From the IMG/VR virus record IMGVR_UViG_2663763478_000004: a DNA stretch of 8,894 nucleotides. One strand, given 5' to 3'. The notes under the pieces were generated by a model. It searched no databases, was not told the DNA's origin, and saw only the letters and a program-made list of their open reading frames with translations. A program made the translations under genes and the position numbers. Positions 21-8,894 of this stretch are shown piece by piece. The DNA is from a virus (lineage: Duplodnaviria; Heunggongvirae; Uroviricota; Caudoviricetes). Position 1 is the stretch's first letter. Each line of letters opens with the position of its first letter.

Positions 21-422
21 TTAATTCGTGTACGTGATCTGGTACGTGATTTCCGCCATCGCCCAGGTGGCCATCTCATTATCACGTTGATAGTTAAAAC
101 CGAGTGGGATCATGGTGTCGATGAGTCCGGAAAGCACCGGAATATCCTTCATGGCCGGAAATATGGTGTTCTCCATCCACGTATCCAGCTCAGAATCCGG
201 CGCCTGTGCACGGACGAAAACGGCAATATGCAGAACAGCCTGCCAGTCGTCCTCATCCGTCATTTTTCCGGTGTACTGCGCATCACTCAGCCACACCGCC
301 ACGGCGGGCAGTTCCTGCGCATCAATAAATGCCGGAAGCCCGTCAAAAAACGTGGCGCTGTCTCCACACTGTTCCCGAAGGCGTGCCAGCACGCTCTGAC
401 GGATTTGTGTGTGTCGGTTCAT
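21..422 (-). CDS. U: Tail terminator protein gpU
   Basis: 133-aa ORF (MNRHTQIRQSVLARL...ATFFDG...PAVAVWL...ELHI..VF..AQ.PDSELD.WME) recognisably homologous to lambda gpU (131 aa). ATGA overlap with the Z stop at 419..422. Confidence 0.9.
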   Translation of the reverse strand: MNRHTQIRQSVLARLREQCGDSATFFDGLPAFIDAQELPAVAVWLSDAQYTGKMTDEDDWQAVLHIAVFVRAQAPDSELDTWMENTIFPAMKDIPVLSGLIDTMIPLGFNYQRDNEMATWAMAEITYQITYTN

Positions 423-1006
423 TTACTCAGATGTAACCTCAGTTGTTGTTTCAGGGCATACCCCAGCTGTTTCGGCATTTCCGCAGCAATGATGCGGTCG
501 CGGGCATCTTCAAATGCCTGTGTCAGCGGTCCGGACATCGGGATTTTCACCACATCAATGGGGTAACGATTTTTGCCGTCAATACGCCGCATCACATGCC
601 AGCGACCATTCGCCAGTTGCTGAATAAACGCATCCCGGAAAAGGTATTTCCCCACTTTCAGTACGCTGCCACGATGACGTGAGTTGCTGCCATGCCGGGA
701 GCGGGCCAGTCTGACCTGTGCGGTACCCAGCTTAATGGCGGGCAGGTTACCCCGGTTAACACGCATGCGGGCATACATTTTTCCTGAGGGGCTGGCTTTA
801 AGCAGCCTGACACGCTCCCTGACCGTTTTCAGGGGAATACCTTTCACCTGGTTATCCCCGGCAACGGTATTCTGCGCAACCTGCCGTGTGGCGACAGAAA
901 CAATCTTTGCCGCCACACGGTTTACCGCCCATGCGCTGGTCTGTGGCACCATGCGGGTATCGAGGCTGTTCAGATTGCGGATGGCATTCTCAAGTCCCTT
1001 CATCAT
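419..1006 (-). CDS. Z: Tail completion protein gpZ
   Basis: 195-aa ORF between FII and U, the size and position of lambda gpZ (192 aa as I recall). Contains GRWHVM.R..GKNRYPIDVVKIPM. Its start overlaps the FII end by 17 nt. Assignment by synteny and length more than by remembered sequence. Confidence 0.8.
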   Translation of the reverse strand: MMKGLENAIRNLNSLDTRMVPQTSAWAVNRVAAKIVSVATRQVAQNTVAGDNQVKGIPLKTVRERVRLLKASPSGKMYARMRVNRGNLPAIKLGTAQVRLARSRHGSNSRHRGSVLKVGKYLFRDAFIQQLANGRWHVMRRIDGKNRYPIDVVKIPMSGPLTQAFEDARDRIIAAEMPKQLGYALKQQLRLHLSK

Positions 1007-1367
1007 ATCGCCTCATTCTGGCATTATTCTGTGGGGCAGGACTGCCCCGCCTTAACCGGATATAACAGCATCCCCCGTCATCCGGAGTAATACGATCCAC
1101 AAAGAAAGAATCATCCCCGATAGTTAACGTATCCTGACGGCGTAACTGCGATATATCTGCCGTTTTCACAAACAGGCACGGTGAGGAATCCTCAAGCCGG
1201 ATCCCCCCGGCAACAAAAGAAATACTTTCGGGATCATCAAAAACCCCTGTCAGGTGTGTCCCCTCAAGTTCTCCGGACGTAATGACGGCGCTGATCCCCA
1301 TATCACGGAGAATGACTTCATTGACACCGGCAAGCGCAGCATCAAACAGATTATCGAAACCGTCCAC
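990..1367 (-). CDS. FII: Head-tail joining protein gpFII
   Basis: 125-aa ORF MDGFDNLFDAALAG...GVFDDPE.IS......R.E.SSP.LFV.T....QLRR.DTLTIG...F.VDR..PDDGG closely parallels lambda gpFII (MADFDNLFDAAIA..., 117 aa). Confidence 0.9.
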   Translation of the reverse strand: MDGFDNLFDAALAGVNEVILRDMGISAVITSGELEGTHLTGVFDDPESISFVAGGIRLEDSSPCLFVKTADISQLRRQDTLTIGDDSFFVDRITPDDGGCCYIRLRRGSPAPQNNARMRRYDEGT

Positions 1368-1378
1368 GACATCTCCTG

Positions 1379-1765
1379 TTACTGCCTTTTTGCCAGACCA
1401 CCTGCCGCCATGCTGGCAGCCACCTCAGCAGAAACACGAAACGACGTTCCCGGTGAAACAAATATCACTGAACCATTACATTTTGTATGCAGTGTCGCCA
1501 GTGCCACCACCGTAACCTGCCCCGTTTCGTCTCCGGTAACAATGCCTGGCTGTTCAGGAACTGACTCGCCTTTATGCGCGGTCGGATCATCTTTCGATGG
1601 TGAGTACGTATCCGGCTCTGCGACCTCCCCCGCATCTCCAAGCTCTTCCTCCAGTTCCGCCACTCGCTGCGCAATATCTGCCGCACTACCGGAGACATCC
1701 GGTTCACGCCCCAGCCTCTCAGCCAGCTCACAAAGACGTTTCAGGTTTTCTTCTTTCGTAGCCAT
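1379..1765 (-). CDS. FI: DNA-packaging / head assembly protein gpFI
   Basis: ORF 1379..1798. The homologous start is the second Met (MATKEENLKRL, ATG at 1765..1763), preceded on the - strand by AGGAG-cgggt-ATG. The C-terminal VTVVALATLHT.....FVSPGTSFRVSAEVAA.M...GLA..Q matches the lambda gpFI C-terminus. Acidic, Pro-rich middle linker as in gpFI. Confidence 0.85.
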   Translation of the reverse strand: MATKEENLKRLCELAERLGREPDVSGSAADIAQRVAELEEELGDAGEVAEPDTYSPSKDDPTAHKGESVPEQPGIVTGDETGQVTVVALATLHTKCNGSVIFVSPGTSFRVSAEVAASMAAGGLAKRQ

Positions 1766-1780
1766 ACCCGCTCCTGATTG

Positions 1781-1810
1781 AATGAAAAACGGGAGCATTT
1801 AGCTCCCGCT
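1781..1810 (-). terminator. Intrinsic-terminator-like hairpin plus U-tract between E and FI
   Basis: - strand reads TAA(E stop)-tccgtg-AGCGGGAGC-taaat-GCTCCCGTT-tttcatt: a 7-bp perfect GC-rich stem (9 bp with one G.U and one A.U), 5-nt loop, then a T5 tract. It lies 6 nt after the E stop and about 20 nt before the FI SD/ATG. Confidence 0.45.
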
Positions 1811-1816
1811 CACGGA

Positions 1817-2845
1817 TTATTTCACCTGCACCACCACAAACTCATCCGGATCCGGCAGCACCATCAGCGGCGCGGACTGCGTCATGGTGAATTCACGCGC
1901 CGGATCACCCACGGTCAGCCAGTGTTTCGGATAACGGGAAGACGCCACCACGCCTTCAGACAATGCCTGCGCATCCTGAATGGCACCGTAGCAACGAATA
2001 CCCTCTGCGGCCGTATTTCCCAGTACCAGTGTGCCGTCCGGCAGATAACGTTTTTCGGTACCGTCCTCTGCCACATAGGACGTTTTTGCCACCACGATTG
2101 CCAGATCACCATAATACCCTTTGAAGGACACCACCGCCCCCAGGTCTTTCACTGCCGTTTCCAGCTGTGAATTTGAGCCACGACGGGTATCCAGTTTTTC
2201 GCGGAACAGCTTAAAGCCATTCAGCAGACGCCAGACCTTACCATCCATAATGGCAATATTGATGGTGCCGGAAGCAAAATCACAGTACGCATCCAGATCA
2301 TGCGTCGGATCAAAGGTATCGCGGTCCTGAGCGCTCCACTCCGTCCCTCCTGCCTGCGTAATGTTATTTCCCACCGACCGGCCAAAATCGACCTCAACAG
2401 TTTCAAACTGCTCTCCTTCCATGGTGTATTTGCCATACAGCACGGCATTCACCGCCTGCATCTCTTCCACCTGGACAATGGCGTGCTCTTCCTGTTTGAG
2501 GTTATCGGTGATGATACGCAGGCGACGGTAAGCCGGGCCGTTCAGCTGGGCCGGATCTTCACCGGGAAGACGCTCCACCGCCTGCTGGTAATTAAATTCG
2601 TGTTTCGGCTTAACGTAGCCCGGGCGCAGTACACGAGTTTCACCGCCACGGTGACGCAACACCTTTCCTTCAACAACCGGGGAGACATAGGCCGCCACCG
2701 GCGTTTTTCCGGTAATTTTGTCCAGCATTACCTCTTCGGTATGGAAATTCACCGTACGGCGGAAAAACAGCTCCAGAAACAGCGCACGAAATTTAACTTT
2801 TTGTTCGGTATAACCGAGTAACTGGCGGGTCGTAAACAATCCCAT
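1817..2845 (-). CDS. E: Major capsid protein gpE
   Basis: 342-aa ORF with long colinear matches to lambda gpE (341 aa): PGYVKPKHE, IVQVEEMQAV.AVL.GKYTM.GE.F..VEVD.GRS..NNITQ.GGTEWS, EKLDTRRGSNS.LETAVKDLG, TGDPAREFTM.QSAPLM.L.DPDEFV.VQ. SD-like AGGA upstream of the ATG. Confidence 0.95.
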   Translation of the reverse strand: MGLFTTRQLLGYTEQKVKFRALFLELFFRRTVNFHTEEVMLDKITGKTPVAAYVSPVVEGKVLRHRGGETRVLRPGYVKPKHEFNYQQAVERLPGEDPAQLNGPAYRRLRIITDNLKQEEHAIVQVEEMQAVNAVLYGKYTMEGEQFETVEVDFGRSVGNNITQAGGTEWSAQDRDTFDPTHDLDAYCDFASGTINIAIMDGKVWRLLNGFKLFREKLDTRRGSNSQLETAVKDLGAVVSFKGYYGDLAIVVAKTSYVAEDGTEKRYLPDGTLVLGNTAAEGIRCYGAIQDAQALSEGVVASSRYPKHWLTVGDPAREFTMTQSAPLMVLPDPDEFVVVQVK

Positions 2846-2902
2846 AAATCAGTTCCTTTCATTCAGAAATCAGTCAGGCTACCGCAGTGACCTGATAAAA
2901 TG

Positions 2903-3250
2903 TTACGGCAGCGCTGCGTGACTCAGGGCACTGCCGGCAAAGGCATTCGCCTTTTTGTGTGTATCCACTCTCTCAGGCCAGTGGATGGCCTCCGTCGCAA
3001 AGGTCCCCGACTTGTAATACGTCAGCACCGTCTCTGTACCTTCAAGCGGCAGTACCAGTATGCCAACCACATGGCCTGCCTTCTGTCCGTCCCAGACCAC
3101 CAGTTTCCCGGTATCCTCATCCAGCATCAGGGGCGTCAGAGCCGGTGTTGCCGAGGAAATCCCGCTGCAGCCTGTGGCGGTATGGGCCGGATCATTACCG
3201 GCAAAAATACGTACTTCCGCACGCTGTTCAGTGATGGTTTTCGTTACCAT
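2903..3250 (-). CDS. D: Head decoration protein gpD
   Basis: 115-aa ORF with DPAHTAT, TPLMLD, KLV.WDG, VGIL, T.YKSGTF, WPE and AFAG motifs colinear with lambda gpD (110 aa). GAGG about 10 nt upstream of the ATG. Confidence 0.95.
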   Translation of the reverse strand: MVTKTITEQRAEVRIFAGNDPAHTATGCSGISSATPALTPLMLDEDTGKLVVWDGQKAGHVVGILVLPLEGTETVLTYYKSGTFATEAIHWPERVDTHKKANAFAGSALSHAALP

Positions 3251-3286: not shown

Positions 3287-3952
3287 TCATGGCATGGCCA
3301 TGAGCATTTTCACGTCCGCATCACCGTCTGCTGACGTCTGTGGCACGCCACCCTGTACCGCTGCCGGTGAATGGTTCGCCATGAAATGTTCAAACATGGC
3401 GGTTGTGGATGCAGAAACCGGTTCTGCCCNNNNNNNNNNNNNNNNNNNNNNNNNNNNNNNNNNNNNNNNNNNNNNNNNNNNNNNNNNNNNNNNNNNNNNN
3501 NNNNNNNNNNNNNNNNNNNNNNNNTTCTCCACGGTCATCCCCGGACAGGCCGCCAGTTTTTCAGCCTGCGCCTCTGCCCCTTTTGCCTCATCCAGGGCCA
3601 TAATCTGATCACGAAGTGAGGGTCCGGCATTCGCCTGCGGTGAAGCAGCCAGAATCGGACGGGCTTTTTCCACCGTCATCTCCGGCATCGCCGCCAGCGT
3701 TGCCGCCAGTTGTTCACGTCCTTTCGCCTCTTCACATGCCATAATGCGATCGGCTTCACTCTGCGCAGATACACCAGATTGTTGCGGTGCCGCCACGGCC
3801 AGAATCGCCCGGGCCTGCTCAACGCTCATACCCTGTTGCCCTGCCAGCATCGTGGCCAGTTGTTCACGTCCTTTCGCTTCCTGACACGTCAGGATCCCCA
3901 TCACTCGCTGGTTCTCCTGCGCGGCAGCCTCCGTTGCAGTTAATTGCGGCAT
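3287..3952 (-). CDS. nu3: Scaffolding protein Nu3, nested in-frame in the 3' part of C (contains the N run)
   Basis: In-frame internal ATG at 3952..3950 (Met302 of the C ORF, ...DTGGT-M-PQLTATEAAAQ...) preceded on the - strand by AGGAGG-cact-ATG. It aligns with the GGRM... region where lambda Nu3 begins inside C. The exact start is an inference. Confidence 0.55.
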   Translation of the reverse strand: MPQLTATEAAAQENQRVMGILTCQEAKGREQLATMLAGQQGMSVEQARAILAVAAPQQSGVSAQSEADRIMACEEAKGREQLAATLAAMPEMTVEKARPILAASPQANAGPSLRDQIMALDEAKGAEAQAEKLAACPGMTVEXXXXXXXXXXXXXXXXXXXXXXXXXXXXXXXXXAEPVSASTTAMFEHFMANHSPAAVQGGVPQTSADGDADVKMLMAMP

Positions 3953-4855
3953 AGTGCCTCCTGTATCGTGTGTGTTCAGCGTCGCAGCCATCACGCTGAT
4001 GGCGTCCGACGCATTGATTAATTCATCCGCCAGTTCGGCCTCAATACCGGACTGACCTTCAAAAACGGCGGCCTCTGTTCCCATAACCGCATCCACAGAT
4101 AAACCGGTATACATCGCCACTTTTTCAGCAAACATCCGGCGCGCCGCATCAATGCGCTGCTGCATGTCCTGGCGAACCTTTGCTGGCAGGGATTCAAACT
4201 GATTGCCATCCACCTTGTGCGATCCGGCGTAAATCAGCGTGATATCCACACCGGCCTGTGCCAGATGACCGGCATAGCTGACATGGCCCATCATCACCCC
4301 AATGGAGCCGATACGGGATGTCTGGGTAACCAGCCGTCGGGAGCAGGCCGATGCCAGTAACATGGCGGCTGAACAGGCCGTGTCATTGCACAGTGCCCAG
4401 ACAGGCTTCAGCTGCCGGAGACGGTAAATCATGTCAGCGCAGTCAAACGCGCCGGTGGCCTGCCCGCCAGAACTGTCAATGTCCAGCAGTACGCCCCGTA
4501 CCTGAGTGTCCGCCATTGCCTGCTGAAGACAGGCGACAATGCCGTCATAGCCAGTCATTCCGGAAAATGGCCGCATGCCACCCAGCCGGTGTACCAGCGT
4601 GCCGGTCACCGGCAGTACAGCAATACCGTTCACCACCCGGTAAACACGGGCAGGTCGTTTGCCTCCGGCCATGTACTCGTCCGTTTCAGCCAGCATCCCG
4701 GGAGCGTCAAGCTGTACCTGCTGTTGCGGTACCGAAAGGCTTGCTGCGCCCATCTCACGCCCGAGCGCGCAAAAGAAAACCCGCGCATAGGCGGGCTCCA
4801 GAAGCAGCGGCTCATTGAATGCCGCAGCGATAATATGTGAAAGATTACGTCTCAC
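3287..4855 (-). CDS. C: Prohead protease / minor capsid protein gpC (S49 SppA-like family), interrupted by a 95-nt N run
   Basis: N-terminal 300 aa colinear with lambda gpC (AFNEPL.LEPAYARVFFCAL, VNGIAVLPV.GTLV, GVLLD.D..GG...GAFDCAD.I.R.R..KPVWAL.ND..CSA..LLASA.SRRLVTQT.R.GSIGVMM, LIY.GSHKVDGN). The C-terminal third carries the scaffold (Nu3) part with tandem repeats. The ORF length of 522 aa is not reliable because 3430..3524 is N. Start overlaps the portal end by 11 nt. Confidence 0.85.
   Translation of the reverse strand: MRRNLSHIIAAAFNEPLLLEPAYARVFFCALGREMGAASLSVPQQQVQLDAPGMLAETDEYMAGGKRPARVYRVVNGIAVLPVTGTLVHRLGGMRPFSGMTGYDGIVACLQQAMADTQVRGVLLDIDSSGGQATGAFDCADMIYRLRQLKPVWALCNDTACSAAMLLASACSRRLVTQTSRIGSIGVMMGHVSYAGHLAQAGVDITLIYAGSHKVDGNQFESLPAKVRQDMQQRIDAARRMFAEKVAMYTGLSVDAVMGTEAAVFEGQSGIEAELADELINASDAISVMAATLNTHDTGGTMPQLTATEAAAQENQRVMGILTCQEAKGREQLATMLAGQQGMSVEQARAILAVAAPQQSGVSAQSEADRIMACEEAKGREQLAATLAAMPEMTVEKARPILAASPQANAGPSLRDQIMALDEAKGAEAQAEKLAACPGMTVEXXXXXXXXXXXXXXXXXXXXXXXXXXXXXXXXXAEPVSASTTAMFEHFMANHSPAAVQGGVPQTSADGDADVKMLMAMP
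3430..3524. other. Run of 95 N (assembly gap or masked sequence)
   Basis: Directly visible in the sequence. It falls within the third copy of the tandem repeat in C/nu3. Confidence 0.98.
3525..3920 (-). repeat. Tandem in-frame repeats (period ~141-150 nt, at least 3 copies) inside the C/nu3 coding sequence, running into the N gap
   Basis: On the + strand gccagttgttcacgtcctttcgc recurs at about 3703 and 3855, and ccac(g/c)gtcatc at 3529 and 3670. At protein level: ...RVMGILTCQEAKGREQLATMLAGQQGMSVEQARAILAVAAPQ / ...RIMACEEAKGREQLAATLAAMPEMTVEKARPILAASPQ / ...QIMALDEAKGAEAQAEKLAACPGMTVE[gap]. Confidence 0.7.
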
Positions 4856-5468
4856 GTGATGTTGTCTCCTCTTCCGGCCTGCGACTCTCCGCTATCTGCT
4901 GCTGATACGCCTGGGCTATCCACACCGGACGTGAGAGTCCGGCTTTTTCGCGCTCTGCGGATTCCCTGACCTGCTGGCGGAAAATGTCCTGATAATCTTC
5001 GCCCATCAGTGCCAGTTCTTTCTCATACGTGCTCAGTCCGGCCTCAATGCGCATCACCGATTCCTGGACCTCCTTGAGCCCGTCAATGGCCATTCTTCCG
5101 GAGCTAATCCACTCTGCCCGTGACCAGGCTGAACGCGCCTGGTAAAAATCAAAACGCGCCCGTGGCGGACGAATAATCCCCCGAAGAAGCGCCTCTTCCA
5201 GCCAGCAGGAAAACATCTGCGTGGCCAGCCGGGCCGCAATAAATTTTCGCCGCCCCATAAAATAGCGCCACGACTCATTGGCGGAGGCGCGGGCACTTGA
5301 GTAACTGACCTTCGAGTAATCACGGGACAACTGTTCGTAGGAAACGCCAAGACCGGCTGCAATATACCGCAGCAGCGCCTGTTCAAGCGCCGAAAATCCA
5401 TTGTCTGAATCCTGCGCTGTCTGCAGGTTCAGCGCATCGCCAGGAAAAAAGGTGCGGAATTTTAACAC
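4845..5468 (-). CDS. B: Portal protein gpB, C-terminal fragment (homology begins about 5450; the annotated Met at 5468 is probably not a real start)
   Basis: PGDALNLQTAQDSDNGFSALEQALLRYIAAGLGVSYEQLSR.Y...YS.ARASANESW.YFMGRRKF.A.R...MF.CWLEEA, SGRMAIDGLKEVQE.VM.IEAGLSTYEKE match the lambda gpB C-terminal half. Confidence 0.8.
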   Translation of the reverse strand: MLKFRTFFPGDALNLQTAQDSDNGFSALEQALLRYIAAGLGVSYEQLSRDYSKVSYSSARASANESWRYFMGRRKFIAARLATQMFSCWLEEALLRGIIRPPRARFDFYQARSAWSRAEWISSGRMAIDGLKEVQESVMRIEAGLSTYEKELALMGEDYQDIFRQQVRESAEREKAGLSRPVWIAQAYQQQIAESRRPEEETTSRET

Positions 5469-6438
5469 CGCCCAGCGTCACGTTATTCGTGTCATACCAG
5501 CGGGTGAACTTCTCCAGAATATTAATAAGCGGATTATCCTGCTGACCTTGCGGTGCCCCCGCGATATATTCAAATGCCTTTTCGGTATCAAGTTCACTTT
5601 CGATTGTGGCTGCATACATCGCCTTCACAATGGCCGACTGAAGCTGCGTGGCCTGCAGGGAGTCCAGCATCTTCATCCGCTCCATTACGCTGTAAAACTG
5701 ATTAGCCCCACGGGTCTGCCCGTCCTCCACCGGCTCAAAAATATGCAGCATGGCCGGACGCCCGGTGGGAAGCTCACGCGGGATCCGCTCCCAGCGTCCG
5801 GCACCAGAGAACGGAAAATCATCCTCACAGATATGGTACGCAATCGCCCGCCCATACCGATCGACCTCAACCCCGGCCCGCAGAAAGTGGTTCCCCATAC
5901 CGTGTCCTGGCGTGTCCACCCGTTTCGGACTCACGGCTTTAAAACGCGTACGGAATAACTGCGTGGTTTCCGTATCCCAGACCGGCTGCACAAAGATTTC
6001 GCCGTTAAAGGCATGCACGCCCACCCCTTCACGGATAAATTCCGTAAACGTGCGTTTCCCTTCCACGTCGATCTCGCCAAACATTCCTTCTGCGTATTCC
6101 GACCAGGCTGCTTCCACCTCCCCGACAAAACTTTTTGCCGTGGTCTCCCGCATCCCCAGCCAACGCCAGTTCAGACGGTAGCTGATAAGAAACATGTGCC
6201 CGACGATATGATCCTTATGCAGGGCCACCGCATTAGCCGCGATACCGTTATTGCGCACCAGATCATCTGCCCGGGCATTCCCCAGACGCAATGCAGGCAA
6301 CAGGGCCGCATCGGCACTCTGCGCCGGTGGTAACCACTCTGCCATTTGCCCGCCAAATCCTGCGCCGCCTCCGTTGTAGCTGAGACTCTCACGAAGCGGA
6401 ACGCCGTTCACATCAATCAGGACAGGCGTTCGTTTCAT
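5383..6438 (-). CDS. B: Portal protein gpB, N-terminal fragment (homologous through about 5446; the last ~20 codons are out-of-frame read-through)
   Basis: GGGAGFGGQ, AALLP..R.GNARADDLVRNNG.AANA, KRTFT..IREGV..HAFNGE.FVQ, IPRELP.GR....H.FEPVEDGQTRGAN.FYSVME.MKMLD.LQ.TQLQSAIVKAMYAATIESELDT all match lambda gpB. ATGA overlap with the W stop. Confidence 0.8.
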   Translation of the reverse strand: MKRTPVLIDVNGVPLRESLSYNGGGAGFGGQMAEWLPPAQSADAALLPALRLGNARADDLVRNNGIAANAVALHKDHIVGHMFLISYRLNWRWLGMRETTAKSFVGEVEAAWSEYAEGMFGEIDVEGKRTFTEFIREGVGVHAFNGEIFVQPVWDTETTQLFRTRFKAVSPKRVDTPGHGMGNHFLRAGVEVDRYGRAIAYHICEDDFPFSGAGRWERIPRELPTGRPAMLHIFEPVEDGQTRGANQFYSVMERMKMLDSLQATQLQSAIVKAMYAATIESELDTEKAFEYIAGAPQGQQDNPLINILEKFTRWYDTNNVTLGGVKIPHLFSWRCAEPADSAGFRQWIFGA

Positions 6439-6638
6439 AACCTCACTCCCAGCGGTCGGCGGCGTCGGGTCGTACCCAGAACCGACTCCGCATCGTTGAT
6501 CGCACGGTTAAGCTCATTCAGGGACGCTGCCGTATATTCGATCCTGCGACCGTCTTTCTGTACCGACACAACCCGTTTACCGGTTAATAAATCAAGGCGC
6601 GCCTGACGCAGCGCCTGCAGTTCAGCGACTGTAACCAT
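6435..6638 (-). CDS. W: Head-tail joining / head completion protein gpW
   Basis: 67-aa ORF MVTVAELQALRQARLDLLTGKRVVSVQKDGRRIEYTAASLNEL...RRRR versus lambda gpW (68 aa) [43 protein letters not shown]...QRRR. GGAGGA Shine-Dalgarno overlaps the A stop; the start immediately follows the A stop. Confidence 0.92.
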   Translation of the reverse strand: MVTVAELQALRQARLDLLTGKRVVSVQKDGRRIEYTAASLNELNRAINDAESVLGTTRRRRPLGVRL

Positions 6639-8549
6639 TCACTCCTCCGGACAGCTTCGCTGCCAGTTCTTCAAGGGTCGGTTGTGCAGTTGCATCCTTG
6701 CGGGATGCAACTGCACAGCCAGATCAAGTTGCCAGCGTTGCACGGACACACGTAATGCCGCATAGGCATACACCAGGCAGTCCAGCGCTTCGTTACGCCG
6801 CTTTTTGTTATCCCACAACAGACGCATCTTTCCTTTTTCCCACTTTTCCACCAGTTCCTCCGCCACCAGTTGTTGTGCCTCTGTCTGCGAAAAAATCTCC
6901 GGATTATCAGGAAAGCGGATGGCATACGATGTGGCCTCATTCACAGGGGTGGGATCGGCCTTCATTCGGGCATAGAGAATTTCTTTTGCGGTATCCGTCC
7001 CCACCTCACACAGATACACACCCCGCTGATTGCGGGTTTTCGGCATGGTGATCACCGGCTTGCCATAGACAGAGGCACCTTTTACCGGCAGTACCCGGAA
7101 AATACCGTGTTTTTTTGACCTCTGATACACGATTTCGCCATCGATCCCCCCGATATCCCAGCAGACACGGGAAATGGTCATTTCGGTACCGTCTGCATGG
7201 CGGTATTTTTTATTGATCGCCGCATCCACACGTAACAGCGTCTCTTCCTCATCAGGACGTCCCATGATGATGATTTTATCCACCAGAAAGGCTTCCTCTC
7301 CCGGAGCCCACCCCCAGACATACATCTCAAAACGGTTTCGCTGCGAGTCAATGCCCGCCGTCAGATAAACCACCCGGACAGGCACCGTTGCCGTGTAAGG
7401 CACAACCTTATCCATCAGTACCTGGTGATCGAGTTTTTCGCCCACGGCCTCTTCCCAGGTCTCGCCCAGCGTGGTGTTCACAAAAGTTTTCACGCCGTTG
7501 GGATCTTTCAGTGCATCCAGCCAGTCACAGACTATCTGTACCCTGGTGGTGAACGGACTGTACGCCGTCCATATATGGAAAGTGATGGAGCGCGGCGGCG
7601 GAATTTCATTACCCGAAGCACTGAAAAACGTCAGACCGTCACACGTCCACATCCCGGTATTGTCACAAATCCAGCGCCCCCCGGTCTGATCAAGTTCAGA
7701 CTGACGGATCACGCAGCCATTATGTTCACACAGGTAATACACCGTTTCCGGTTTACCCTTCTCCCATTTCAGGCCAAACGACGTCGCATCATCGCCAAAC
7801 TTCAGATACTGCTCCTCCCCGCAATGAGGGCAAGGGACATAAAACCGCATGAAATGCGCAGATTCATTCGCAGCTTTTTCAATCTGACAGGAGCCTTTAA
7901 TTTTTGGCGTTGAACCGCGTATGGATTTTGGCCATACCGAACCTTCAATACGTTTATCGCCAAGCAGTGTTGGCGAACCTTCTTTTTCCACATCCGGTTC
8001 AAACGAGGAGAGTTCGTCATAGCAGACCACATCGACAGATTTTTCACGGTAGTTTTTGGCAGCAGCACCACCCAAACACCAGAACCCCACACCAGAGGAA
8101 AAACGCTTCAGTGTGAGCGTATTATCCCGGTGTTTCCGGCCCAGCCAGGGAGAAAGTTTTTTCAGGCAAGGAACATCACGAATTGTTGCTTCCACGTGAG
8201 ACTTCATAAAATCTTCAGCAGCTGAGTCCGTCGGCTGAAAAAGAAGAGTGTTGCGGGATTTGTGCTCAATAAAATACCCGATCACACCAAGCACCATTTT
8301 TGTATAACCAACACGGGCAGATTTAATCAGGTTAACTGTACGAATCTCGTCATTGCCCATGCAGTTCATGATGGCGACCTGAAACTGCAGCGTTTTCCAT
8401 TCCCCCTCACCGTATGACGATTCTTTAGGCAGGTAATAATTTTGATCGGCCCATTCTACAGCCGTCACCGGCAATACCCTGACCAGTGGCTGCAGTGCGA
8501 TAGTGACTGCCACCATCATATTACTCAGTTGTTGTTCTGATATATTCAT
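6639..8549 (-). CDS. A: Terminase large subunit gpA (ATPase/translocase plus cos endonuclease)
   Basis: The ORF runs to 8606, but homology to lambda gpA begins at the internal ATG 8549..8547 (MNISEQQLSNM versus lambda MNISNSQVNRL), giving 636 aa versus 641 in lambda. Long near-identical blocks: TAVEWAD.NYYLPKES, NTLTMKRF..G.GFWCLGG.AAKNYREKSVDV.GYDEL, FLGDKRIEGSVWPKSIRGSTPK, HFMRF.V.CPHCGEEQYLKFGD, FVNTTLGETWE, KGASVYGKPV, KRRNEALDC.VYA.AALR.S..RWQLDL. Confidence 0.95.
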   Translation of the reverse strand: MNISEQQLSNMMVAVTIALQPLVRVLPVTAVEWADQNYYLPKESSYGEGEWKTLQFQVAIMNCMGNDEIRTVNLIKSARVGYTKMVLGVIGYFIEHKSRNTLLFQPTDSAAEDFMKSHVEATIRDVPCLKKLSPWLGRKHRDNTLTLKRFSSGVGFWCLGGAAAKNYREKSVDVVCYDELSSFEPDVEKEGSPTLLGDKRIEGSVWPKSIRGSTPKIKGSCQIEKAANESAHFMRFYVPCPHCGEEQYLKFGDDATSFGLKWEKGKPETVYYLCEHNGCVIRQSELDQTGGRWICDNTGMWTCDGLTFFSASGNEIPPPRSITFHIWTAYSPFTTRVQIVCDWLDALKDPNGVKTFVNTTLGETWEEAVGEKLDHQVLMDKVVPYTATVPVRVVYLTAGIDSQRNRFEMYVWGWAPGEEAFLVDKIIIMGRPDEEETLLRVDAAINKKYRHADGTEMTISRVCWDIGGIDGEIVYQRSKKHGIFRVLPVKGASVYGKPVITMPKTRNQRGVYLCEVGTDTAKEILYARMKADPTPVNEATSYAIRFPDNPEIFSQTEAQQLVAEELVEKWEKGKMRLLWDNKKRRNEALDCLVYAYAALRVSVQRWQLDLAVQLHPARMQLHNRPLKNWQRSCPEE

Positions 8550-8844
8550 CGAGTAAATCCGGTAATTTATCCCCCGCACGCGCGCACTGATTCGCTCCCT
8601 TAGCAATAAGGATTTTCAGATGATCAATATGACGCGGCGTTAAATCCGGGAACTGTCGTTGCATGGACAAAGGAATGGAGTCAAGCGTACTGGATAAAGC
8701 CATCGCCAGCTTACTAAGGGCAAAAATACAAAATCCGGTATCGATAAGATTTCCTTTTGACACCTGATTTTTTAACTGCTGTGCGACAGCCTGTTCTGCG
8801 GTCAGTTCCCATCTGGCAATGAGTAGTTTGAGGTGTACTGGCAA
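8521..8844 (-). CDS. nu1: Terminase small subunit Nu1-like, C-terminal (gpA-interacting) part only; the frame is closed upstream by TAG at 8856..8854 and the N-terminal DNA-binding part is not readable in this frame
   Basis: ...ARWELTAEQAVAQQLKN......IDTGFCIFALSKLA...S.LD..PLSMQRQFPDL..RH.D.LK..I.K...........LPDLLDEYI matches the C-terminal ~100 aa of lambda Nu1 (181 aa). The 3' end overlaps the A start by 29 nt, as in lambda. The first in-frame start-like codon is TTG at 8844..8842, which I do not consider a genuine start. Confidence 0.75.
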   Translation of the reverse strand: MPVHLKLLIARWELTAEQAVAQQLKNQVSKGNLIDTGFCIFALSKLAMALSSTLDSIPLSMQRQFPDLTPRHIDHLKILIAKGANQCARAGDKLPDLLDEYIRTTTE

Positions 8845-8894
8845 TAGCGGACACTACCATTTGTTCTTTTTTTAAGCAGCCATCTGATGATATT

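What the first reader, a model, noticed from the sequence alone, without database searches (positions are those of the whole stretch)
5440..5470. Portal gene (B) split by a +1 frameshift in an A6/T6 homopolymer
Homology to lambda gpB continues without loss across the break but in a different frame: the - strand reads cac-ctt-ttt-tcc-tgg (H L F S W...), while a run of five T would give cac ctt ttt cct ggc gat (H L F P G D, matching lambda HLMPGD). Portal is essential, so either the prophage cannot make particles or this is a homopolymer base-calling error. The scrambled Nu1 N-terminus and the N gap elsewhere in the window make a draft-quality artefact at least as likely as real decay.
Basis: seen in the sequence. 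Interest (0 to 1): 0.5.

Follow-up and report, generated by a model that had tools for sequence, protein, structure and literature searches.

The report
Real portal-gene frameshift, Shigella flexneri prophage
The one-base insertion that splits the phage portal gene is a genuine, lineage-wide inactivating mutation in a decaying lambda-like prophage of Shigella flexneri, deposited as two separate coding sequences in public S. flexneri genome records, so it is real but ordinary.

Summary
An A6 run at window 5445..5450 (T6 on the coding minus strand) splits a lambda-family portal gene into a 351-aa ORF (6438..5383) and a 207-aa ORF (5468..4845). Removing one A gives a 530-aa portal that differs by one residue from the intact portal of the closest E. 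coli prophages, which have A5. It is not a base-calling error. The exact 351-aa fragment is indexed in 2587 blocks of public assemblies, and all 10 long records fetched, including strain 2457T, carry T6 at the same position. The window is 100% identical to two of those records. The few S. flexneri assemblies with T5 mostly also carry deletions in other 6- and 7-base homopolymers, so the artefact most likely runs the other way. The "scrambled Nu1 N-terminus" is the end of an IS600 element inserted in Nu1. In this haplotype the stretch between the Rz-type lysis gene and that point, where cos is expected, is also missing. A second lesion frameshifts the last 30 codons of the large terminase. The best reading is a replication-slippage pseudogene in a defective, phage-21-like cryptic prophage. 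Nothing supports programmed frameshifting. This is already known and of low interest.

The parts
5445..5450 (-). A6/T6 homopolymer, the site of the one-base insertion (ancestral state A5) that frameshifts the portal gene after codon 331 of 530.
   Evidence: Searches show the run. Searches show A5 in the closest E. coli prophages (99.8-99.9% identical). One search shows T6 in 10 of 10 S. flexneri records.
5383..6438 (-). Portal gene, 5' fragment of 351 aa. Residues 1-331 are portal sequence and the last 20 are out of frame. It is identical to AAN42336.1, AAP16213.1, ABF04804.1 and ADA73063.1.
   Evidence: PF05136 profile positions 2-288, E = 1.5e-67.
4845..5468 (-). Portal gene, 3' fragment, one base forward in frame (207-aa ORF; portal homology starts at its residue 8). 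It is identical to AAN42337.2 and AAP16214.1.
   Evidence: PF05136 profile positions 288-354, E = 1.9e-22.
6435..6638 (-). gpW-type head-tail joining gene (67 aa), intact.
   Evidence: (PF02831); annotation of L001.
6639..8549 (-). Large terminase (gpA family), 636 aa, with an altered C-terminus. The last 30 aa of the 642-aa ancestral form are replaced by 24 unrelated aa.
   Evidence: 636-aa and 642-aa forms within S. flexneri; C-terminal sequences.
6680..6720 (-). Lesion in the 3' end of terL. Three substitutions plus a one-base deletion at 6709-6713 turn an imperfect palindrome into a near-perfect one (18-nt arms, 94% complementary, 5-nt spacer). This looks like a single quasipalindrome-correction (template-switch) event.
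8521..8829 (-). 3' remnant of the small terminase gene Nu1, about codons 68-170. The 5' part with the DNA-binding N-terminus is cut off by IS600.
   Evidence: match to relatives ends at 8829; alignment with the 170-aa Nu1 of L001.
8830..8894 (-). Terminal 65 bases or so of an IS600 element (IS3 family). A contig end here is what an assembly breaking in a multi-copy IS would give.
   Evidence: contiguous with the IS in all 10 records and repeated elsewhere in them; 99.7% identity to annotated IS600.
3287..4855 (-). gpC/Nu3-type S49 protease and scaffold gene. It is interrupted in the window only by the N run and is an intact 501-aa gene in the identical finished chromosomes.
3430..3524 (.). Run of 95 N, a scaffold gap. 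It stands for only 32 bases in the identical finished genomes.
   Evidence: L003 12915..12946.
21..3250 (-). Intact head and tail genes: D (2903..3250), E (1817..2845), FI (1379..1765), FII (990..1367), Z (419..1003) and U (21..422).
   Evidence: with gene calls and Pfam families mapped onto the window through.

Best explanation
The window is the morphogenesis segment (Nu1' to U) of a defective lambdoid prophage of Shigella flexneri whose head genes are of the phage 21 type. In an ancestor of the sampled S. flexneri strains, the run of five A:T pairs at portal codons 330-332 gained one base, most likely by replication slippage (inferred). Translation now leaves the portal frame after residue 331 of 530 and stops 20 codons later. 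The fragment lacks the C-terminal 199 residues, including the last 66 positions of the conserved lambda-portal domain, so a dodecameric portal ring should not form (inferred). The mutation is real and lineage-wide (shown). It is one of several lesions in the packaging genes. IS600 is inserted in Nu1 in every record examined. In the window's haplotype the stretch between the Rz-type lysis gene and the Nu1 break point is also missing, which is where cos should lie by analogy with lambda. The same haplotype carries a frameshift of the terL C-terminus. The element is therefore a cryptic prophage that cannot package DNA, and the portal gene is a pseudogene that appears to be drifting neutrally.
For: (1) The state is derived. 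The closest E. coli prophages (99.8-99.9% identical over the gene) have A5 and an annotated intact 530-aa portal, and the repaired window protein differs from theirs by one residue, S445G. (2) The mutation is real and lineage-wide. The exact 351-aa fragment matches deposited S. flexneri proteins, one of them named in the output as from strain 301. It was seen on at least 1000 contigs and in 2587 index blocks, 31 of which hold contigs over 1 Mb. All 10 long records fetched, including AE014073.1, have T6 at the same site. Two GTDB species-representative genomes carry the exact 41-mer. (3) The window is 100% identical to L003 and L005 on both sides of the gap. (4) T6 occurs on both terL haplotypes, 642 aa and 636 aa, so it predates their split. 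(5) Other lesions accompany it: the IS600 junction in Nu1 is shared by all 10 records, L001 positions 12526..9986 are missing from L005 and L010, and the terL C-terminus is frameshifted. (6) Shigella genomes are known to carry pseudogenes in at least 5% of CDS (PMC7373316).
Against: About 20 contigs labelled S. flexneri encode the repaired 530-aa protein, so T5 does exist in some assemblies. Seven of the 10 examined also carry deletions in other homopolymers of five to seven bases, which points to under-calling. Three of them show little or nothing beyond T5 itself: L014 has one other deletion, in a G6 run, and L020 and L022 have none. A true revertant sublineage is therefore not excluded. No expression or particle data were available, so loss of function is inferred from sequence alone.
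Confidence: 0.93

Rival explanations
1. The extra A is a homopolymer base-calling or assembly error in a draft-quality sequence, and the real genome has A5 and an intact portal. This is the alternative the first reader preferred.
For: The window is a draft with a 95-N gap. Homopolymers are typical error sites. The closest E. coli relatives have A5.
Against: The same A6 is present in 10 of 10 long S. flexneri records and in 2587 blocks of assemblies from many sources. Outside the gap the window is base-for-base identical to finished chromosomes. In this data set the errors go in the opposite direction: the rare T5 assemblies mostly carry other homopolymer deletions.
Confidence: 0.02
2. The site is a recoding signal. 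Ribosomes slip forward by one base on CUU UUU U (or RNA polymerase slips on the T6 run), so that a useful amount of full-length portal is still made from the split gene.
For: A P-site tRNA-Phe on UUU, or tRNA-Leu on CUU, can re-pair perfectly one base forward, and the product would be exactly the ancestral HLFPGD protein (sequence). Some spontaneous slippage is expected on any U6 run (own knowledge).
Against: The hallmarks of a programmed forward frameshift are absent. The next codon is an ordinary UCC and not a stop, and no Shine-Dalgarno-like element lies 3 nt upstream (the nearest GGCGG is about 21 nt upstream). The downstream RNA fold is not unusual (z = -1.32, 22 of 200 shuffles fold as well). 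The split is not conserved: functional relatives, including phage 21 and lambda, have a continuous ORF. Six bases is below the run length of about 8-9 reported for efficient transcriptional slippage in E. coli (own knowledge). Nu1 is disrupted in any case.
Confidence: 0.02
3. The run behaves as a reversible slippage switch. Some S. flexneri sublineages have truly reverted to T5 and carry an intact portal gene.
For: The exact repaired protein occurs on about 20 contigs labelled S. flexneri. L020 and L022 show no indel other than T5 against the reference, and L014 shows only one other.
Against: Nine of the 10 places examined come from Logan assemblies of sequencing runs, eight of them from one run series (SRR31555xxx). 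The tenth is CP037996.1, with 25 indels in 20.6 kb. Sibling runs show deletions confined to other 6- and 7-base homopolymers. The look-up selects for T5 by construction. With Nu1 disrupted there is no selection for reversion.
Confidence: 0.05

Closest known systems
The deposited S. flexneri coding sequences AAN42336.1 and AAN42337.2 (strain 301 is named in the tool output) and AAP16213.1 and AAP16214.1, each named 'head-tail preconnector gp5'
   Same: Both fragments are identical in sequence to these entries. The surrounding DNA is 100% identical to S. flexneri chromosome records L003 and L005, and to L010 (AE014073.1) over 3525..8894.
   Different: Nothing differs. The window is another copy of the same locus from a draft assembly.
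Portal protein of phage 21 (gene 4) and gpB of phage lambda (PDB 8k38)
   Same: The gene family is the same (PF05136) and the gene order is the same: Nu1-A-W-B-C-D-E. DNA identity to phage 21 is 93.5%. The intact orthologue aligns to lambda gpB over residues 5-527 with E = 6e-214.
   Different: Those genes are continuous and functional. Here a one-base insertion truncates the protein after residue 331.
Intact orthologous prophage in E. coli CFSAN029787, RMDEC364, VL46, VL40 and FDAARGOS_943
   Same: Identity over the portal gene is 99.8-99.9%. For the two fetched with flanks (CFSAN029787 and FDAARGOS_943) the head gene order is also the same.
   Different: In those two the run is A5, the portal is an intact 530 aa, Nu1 is 169-170 aa with no IS600 in it, and terL is the 642-aa form. 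FDAARGOS_943 carries its own decay elsewhere (an ISEc60 insertion and a frameshifted head-tail joining gene).
Programmed forward frameshift of prfB (RF2), CUU UGA C
   Same: There is a CUU followed by U, on which the P-site tRNA could re-pair one base forward.
   Different: There is no A-site stop codon, no upstream Shine-Dalgarno stimulator, and no conservation of the split among homologues.

Membership tests
Lambda-family phage portal protein (Pfam PF05136, Phage_portal_2) | Sequence match to the family profile above the gathering score (32.9 bits). | tested here: met
   The N fragment scores 228.7 bits and the C fragment 80.4 bits. The intact orthologue scores 326.5 bits.
Lambda-family phage portal protein (Pfam PF05136, Phage_portal_2) | One continuous reading frame covering the whole domain (profile positions 2-354). 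| tested here: not met
   The profile is split at position 288 between two frames. The gene is therefore a pseudogene of this family, not a functional member.
Lambda-family phage portal protein (Pfam PF05136, Phage_portal_2) | Position between the W-type head-tail joining gene and the C-type S49 protease/scaffold gene, downstream of the terminase genes. | tested here: met
   Gene order in the window and in L001-L012.
Lambda-family phage portal protein (Pfam PF05136, Phage_portal_2) | Assembly into a dodecameric ring at one capsid vertex. | not testable with these tools
   This needs biochemistry or cryo-EM. It is expected to fail because 199 C-terminal residues are missing (inference).
Fixed pseudogene in a cryptic (defective) prophage | The disrupted state is derived relative to intact close orthologues. 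| tested here: met
   The nearest relatives, at 99.8-99.9% identity, have A5 and an intact ORF.
Fixed pseudogene in a cryptic (defective) prophage | The same lesion is present in independent isolates and sequencing projects of the lineage. | tested here: met
   It is present in 10 of 10 long records, in 2587 index blocks and on at least 1000 contigs.
Fixed pseudogene in a cryptic (defective) prophage | Other inactivating lesions are present in essential genes or sites of the same element. | tested here: met
   IS600 in Nu1, loss of the lysis-gene-to-Nu1 stretch where cos is expected, and the terL C-terminal frameshift.
Fixed pseudogene in a cryptic (defective) prophage | No infectious particles are produced on induction. 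| not testable with these tools
   This needs mitomycin C induction of a strain such as 2457T.
Programmed forward ribosomal frameshift site (prfB type) | A-site stop or rare codon, plus a Shine-Dalgarno-like stimulator about 3 nt upstream of the slippery codon. | tested here: not met
   The A-site codon is UCC and the nearest GGCGG is about 21 nt upstream. The downstream fold is not significant.
Programmed forward ribosomal frameshift site (prfB type) | The split frame is conserved among homologues. | tested here: not met
   The ORF is continuous in phage 21, lambda and the E. coli relatives examined.
Homopolymer sequencing artefact | Run length is not reproducible between independent assemblies of the same lineage. 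| tested here: not met
   T6 is reproducible. The rare T5 calls mostly co-occur with other homopolymer deletions.

The most novel reading that the evidence does not exclude
The U6 run lets a small fraction of ribosomes (or RNA polymerases) slip and restore the exact ancestral portal, or the run reverts by replication slippage in some sublineages. In either case the intact head and tail genes of this otherwise grounded prophage could still supply portal-containing proheads, for example to another lambdoid phage or a satellite in the same cell.
Probability: 0.02. Interest if true: 0.35.

Novelty: already known. Interest (0 to 1): 0.08.

Why it matters
It matters little for biology. This is one more slippage-generated pseudogene in one of the many decaying prophages of Shigella flexneri, and public records already hold the two halves as separate proteins. 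It has some practical value. First, it shows that a frameshift in a draft contig should be tested against population data before being called an error. Here the error runs in the other direction, because assemblies that compress homopolymers falsely "repair" the gene. Second, T6, the IS600::Nu1 junction and the terL palindrome-correcting lesion form an ordered series of markers that can date the decay of this prophage within S. flexneri.

Tried and rejected
(1) Sequencing error: rejected on the population evidence.

(2) Exact A6 80-mer among the 5426 complete E. coli genomes: none found, and only A5 relatives turned up. That collection holds only E. coli assemblies, and the exact protein look-up was what identified S. 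flexneri.

(3) Programmed frameshift or RNA stimulator: the sequence context and the RNA fold gave nothing.

(4) Exact look-up of the 655-aa terL ORF starting at its upstream TTG: not in the collection. The deposited form starts at the ATG and is 636 aa.

(5) Genome papers for strains 2457T and 301 (tried as PMC153260 and PMC137130): not held. The strain 8401 paper has no text on phages, and PMC4193171 concerns a different, Stx-carrying prophage. No published description of this specific pseudogene could be cited; the statement that it is already on record rests on the deposited protein entries.

(6) The T5 S. flexneri assemblies as evidence for an intact allele: examined and judged most likely homopolymer under-calling, though this is not fully excluded.

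Full report
**Observation**

On the minus strand the window reads CCG CAC CTT TTT TCC TGG CGA TGC. The run is exactly six A at 5445..5450 on the plus strand. Two minus-strand ORFs overlap at this point: 5383..6438 (351 aa, ATG start) and 4845..5468 (207 aa). The downstream ORF lies one base forward in frame from the upstream one.

Both ORFs match Pfam PF05136 (Phage_portal_2, lambda family). The first covers profile positions 2-288 (E = 1.5e-67) and the second covers 288-354 (E = 1.9e-22), so the two halves of one domain abut at the homopolymer. Removing one A gives a 530-aa protein that reads HLFPGD across the junction. The intact E. coli orthologue, which differs from that protein by one residue, aligns to lambda gpB (PDB 8k38) over residues 5-527 with E = 6e-214, and lambda has HLMPGD at that place.

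**What the ancestral state is**

Megablast against phage records finds phage 21 and lambda-like phages at about 93.5% identity, all with a continuous portal gene. Among 5426 complete E. coli genomes, five carry a prophage whose portal gene is 99.8-99.9% identical, and the match is one base shorter than the query.

Base-by-base comparison with two of them (L001 = CFSAN029787, L002 = FDAARGOS_943) shows that the only indel in the portal gene is the extra A at 5445. Both references have A5 and an annotated intact portal. The repaired window protein differs from the CFSAN029787 protein by one residue, S445G. A6 is therefore derived from A5.

**Real mutation or artefact**

No complete E. coli genome has the exact A6 80-mer. 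An exact-sequence look-up, however, finds the 351-aa fragment as AAN42336.1, AAP16213.1, ABF04804.1 and ADA73063.1. All are named Shigella flexneri, one of them as S. flexneri 2a str. 301. The fragment was seen on at least 1000 contigs, the longest 4.73 Mb. The 207-aa fragment is AAN42337.2 and AAP16214.1.

The positional index lists the fragment in 2587 blocks of assemblies. In 2146 of these the longest carrying contig is 5-10 kb, the same size class as this 8.9-kb window. In 31 blocks the contig exceeds 1 Mb. Ten long records were fetched (L003-L012, including AE014073.1, which is strain 2457T by my own knowledge), and all ten have T6 at the same position. The window is 100% identical to L003 and L005 on both sides of the N gap. 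Two GTDB species-representative genomes also carry the exact 41-mer.

**The opposite artefact**

The repaired 530-aa sequence also exists in the collection, as WP_134799197.1 from "S. flexneri", but on only about 20 contigs. These are CP037996.1 and short Logan contigs, mostly from one run series (SRR31555xxx).

Compared with L005, seven of the ten carry further one-base deletions in other homopolymers of five to seven bases. Examples are G6 at 8757, A6 at 9228, G6 at 9288, A7 at 9323 and G6 at 15168 in L005 coordinates. CP037996.1 has 25 indels in 20.6 kb. That is the signature of homopolymer under-calling, so the "intact" S. flexneri portals are most likely errors. Three contigs show little or nothing else: L014 has one other deletion, and L020 and L022 have none. 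I therefore leave about 5% for a real revertant sublineage.

**Surroundings**

The window holds the segment from the Nu1 remnant to gene U of a lambdoid prophage. The parts, all on the minus strand, are:
- Nu1 remnant: 8521..8829
- terL: 6639..8549
- W: 6435..6638
- the split portal: 4845..6438
- C/Nu3 S49 protease and scaffold gene: 3287..4855
- D: 2903..3250
- E: 1817..2845
- FI: 1379..1765
- FII: 990..1367
- Z: 419..1003
- U: 21..422

These come, mapped onto the window through.

The "scrambled Nu1 N-terminus" at 8830..8894 is the end of an IS600 element. It is 99.7% identical to annotated IS600 on S. flexneri plasmids, and the junction is identical in all ten records.

In one S. flexneri haplotype, seen in L004, the 5' part of Nu1 and the DNA upstream of it survive about 3.8 kb away, beyond a nest of IS elements. 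In the window's haplotype (L005 and L010) the whole stretch from inside the Rz-type lysis gene to the Nu1 break point is absent (L001 12526..9986). By analogy with lambda, cos lies in that stretch (own knowledge), so this copy could not be packaged even with helper functions.

The N run of 95 stands for only 32 bases of the finished genomes. It is a scaffold gap and not a sign of poor base quality.

**A second lesion**

At 6709-6713 the window differs from the E. coli relatives, and from half of the S. flexneri records, by three substitutions plus a one-base deletion. This replaces the last 30 residues of the 642-aa large terminase with 24 unrelated residues, giving the 636-aa form.

The change converts TGTGC-TGGCG-GCATCC CGCAA GGATGC-AACT-GCACA into TGTGC-AGTT-GCATCC CGCAA GGATGC-AACT-GCACA. 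An imperfect palindrome becomes a near-perfect one, with 18-nt arms, 94% complementarity and a 5-nt spacer. No such repeat is detected in the ancestral sequence. All four changes are explained by one template-switch (quasipalindrome correction) event. T6 occurs on both terL haplotypes, so the portal frameshift is the older lesion.

**Mechanism**

The most likely history is inferred as follows. Replication slippage added one A:T pair to the A5 run in an ancestor of the sampled S. flexneri. The portal was truncated after residue 331, and the mutation persisted because the prophage was already, or soon became, defective through the IS600 insertion in Nu1. This fits the known genome decay of Shigella, in which pseudogenes make up at least 5% of CDS in each genome (PMC7373316).

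Programmed recoding was considered and rejected:
- A tRNA could formally re-pair one base forward on CUU UUU U, but the next codon is an ordinary UCC.
- There is no Shine-Dalgarno-like element at the right distance.
- The downstream RNA fold is unremarkable (z = -1.32).
- The split is absent from functional relatives.

**Verdict**

The feature is already present in public records as two adjacent portal fragments and is an ordinary pseudogene of a cryptic prophage. Interest is low.

Noticed in passing
window 6680..6720 (lesion at 6709-6713): The terL 3' lesion (three substitutions plus a one-base deletion) turns an imperfect palindrome into a near-perfect one with 18-nt arms and a 5-nt spacer. 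It looks like a natural quasipalindrome-correction (template-switch) mutation. It frameshifts the last 30 codons of the large terminase. It is present in six of the ten S. flexneri records fetched (L003, L005, L007, L008 and L010 among them) and absent from L004, L006, L009, L011 and L012.
   Followed up: yes
L013 (CP037996.1) and L014-L022 (Logan SRR31555xxx and SRR16936277): These are S. flexneri assemblies in which the portal looks intact (T5). Seven of the ten also have deletions in other homopolymers of five to seven bases, which break terL into two or three pieces. Homopolymer compression falsely repairs one pseudogene and creates others.
   Followed up: yes
window 3430..3524: The run of 95 N replaces only 32 bases of the otherwise identical finished genomes (L003 12915..12946). 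The difference of 63 bases is a multiple of three, so the C-gene ORF stays open across the gap and appears as 522 aa where the real gene is 501 aa. This is probably a coincidence of an estimated gap size.
   Followed up: partly
window 109..455; L004, L006, L009-L012 at about 15920..16270: The differences between the window and several S. flexneri records, including 2457T (L010), are concentrated in genes U and Z. This suggests a recombination tract exchanged with another lambdoid prophage, or a collapse of paralogous copies in the assembly.
   Followed up: no
L005 and L010 5945..6411, compared with L004 166..3785: In the window's haplotype the Rz-type lysis gene is shortened (134 aa against 155 aa) and abuts IS600. 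About 2.5 kb between it and the Nu1 break point is missing, and cos is expected in that stretch.
   Followed up: partly
L003 2321..3742: A group II intron reverse transcriptase ORF (RVT_1 plus GIIM, 473 aa) lies between the Q antiterminator gene and the holin gene of the same prophage in one strain only.
   Followed up: no
L008 / L024 (CP178302.1): This chromosome is titled 'Escherichia coli strain ECMA0423' (4.44 Mb). It carries the portal T6 and the IS600::Nu1 junction found in the S. flexneri records, plus two further terL frameshifts (window-equivalent positions 7952 and 7824).
   Followed up: no
window 1203..1208: At this C6 run in the FII-type head-tail joining gene, E. coli FDAARGOS_943 (L002) has C5, and its gene is annotated as frameshifted. 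At this homopolymer the window has the intact state and the relative has the broken one.
   Followed up: partly
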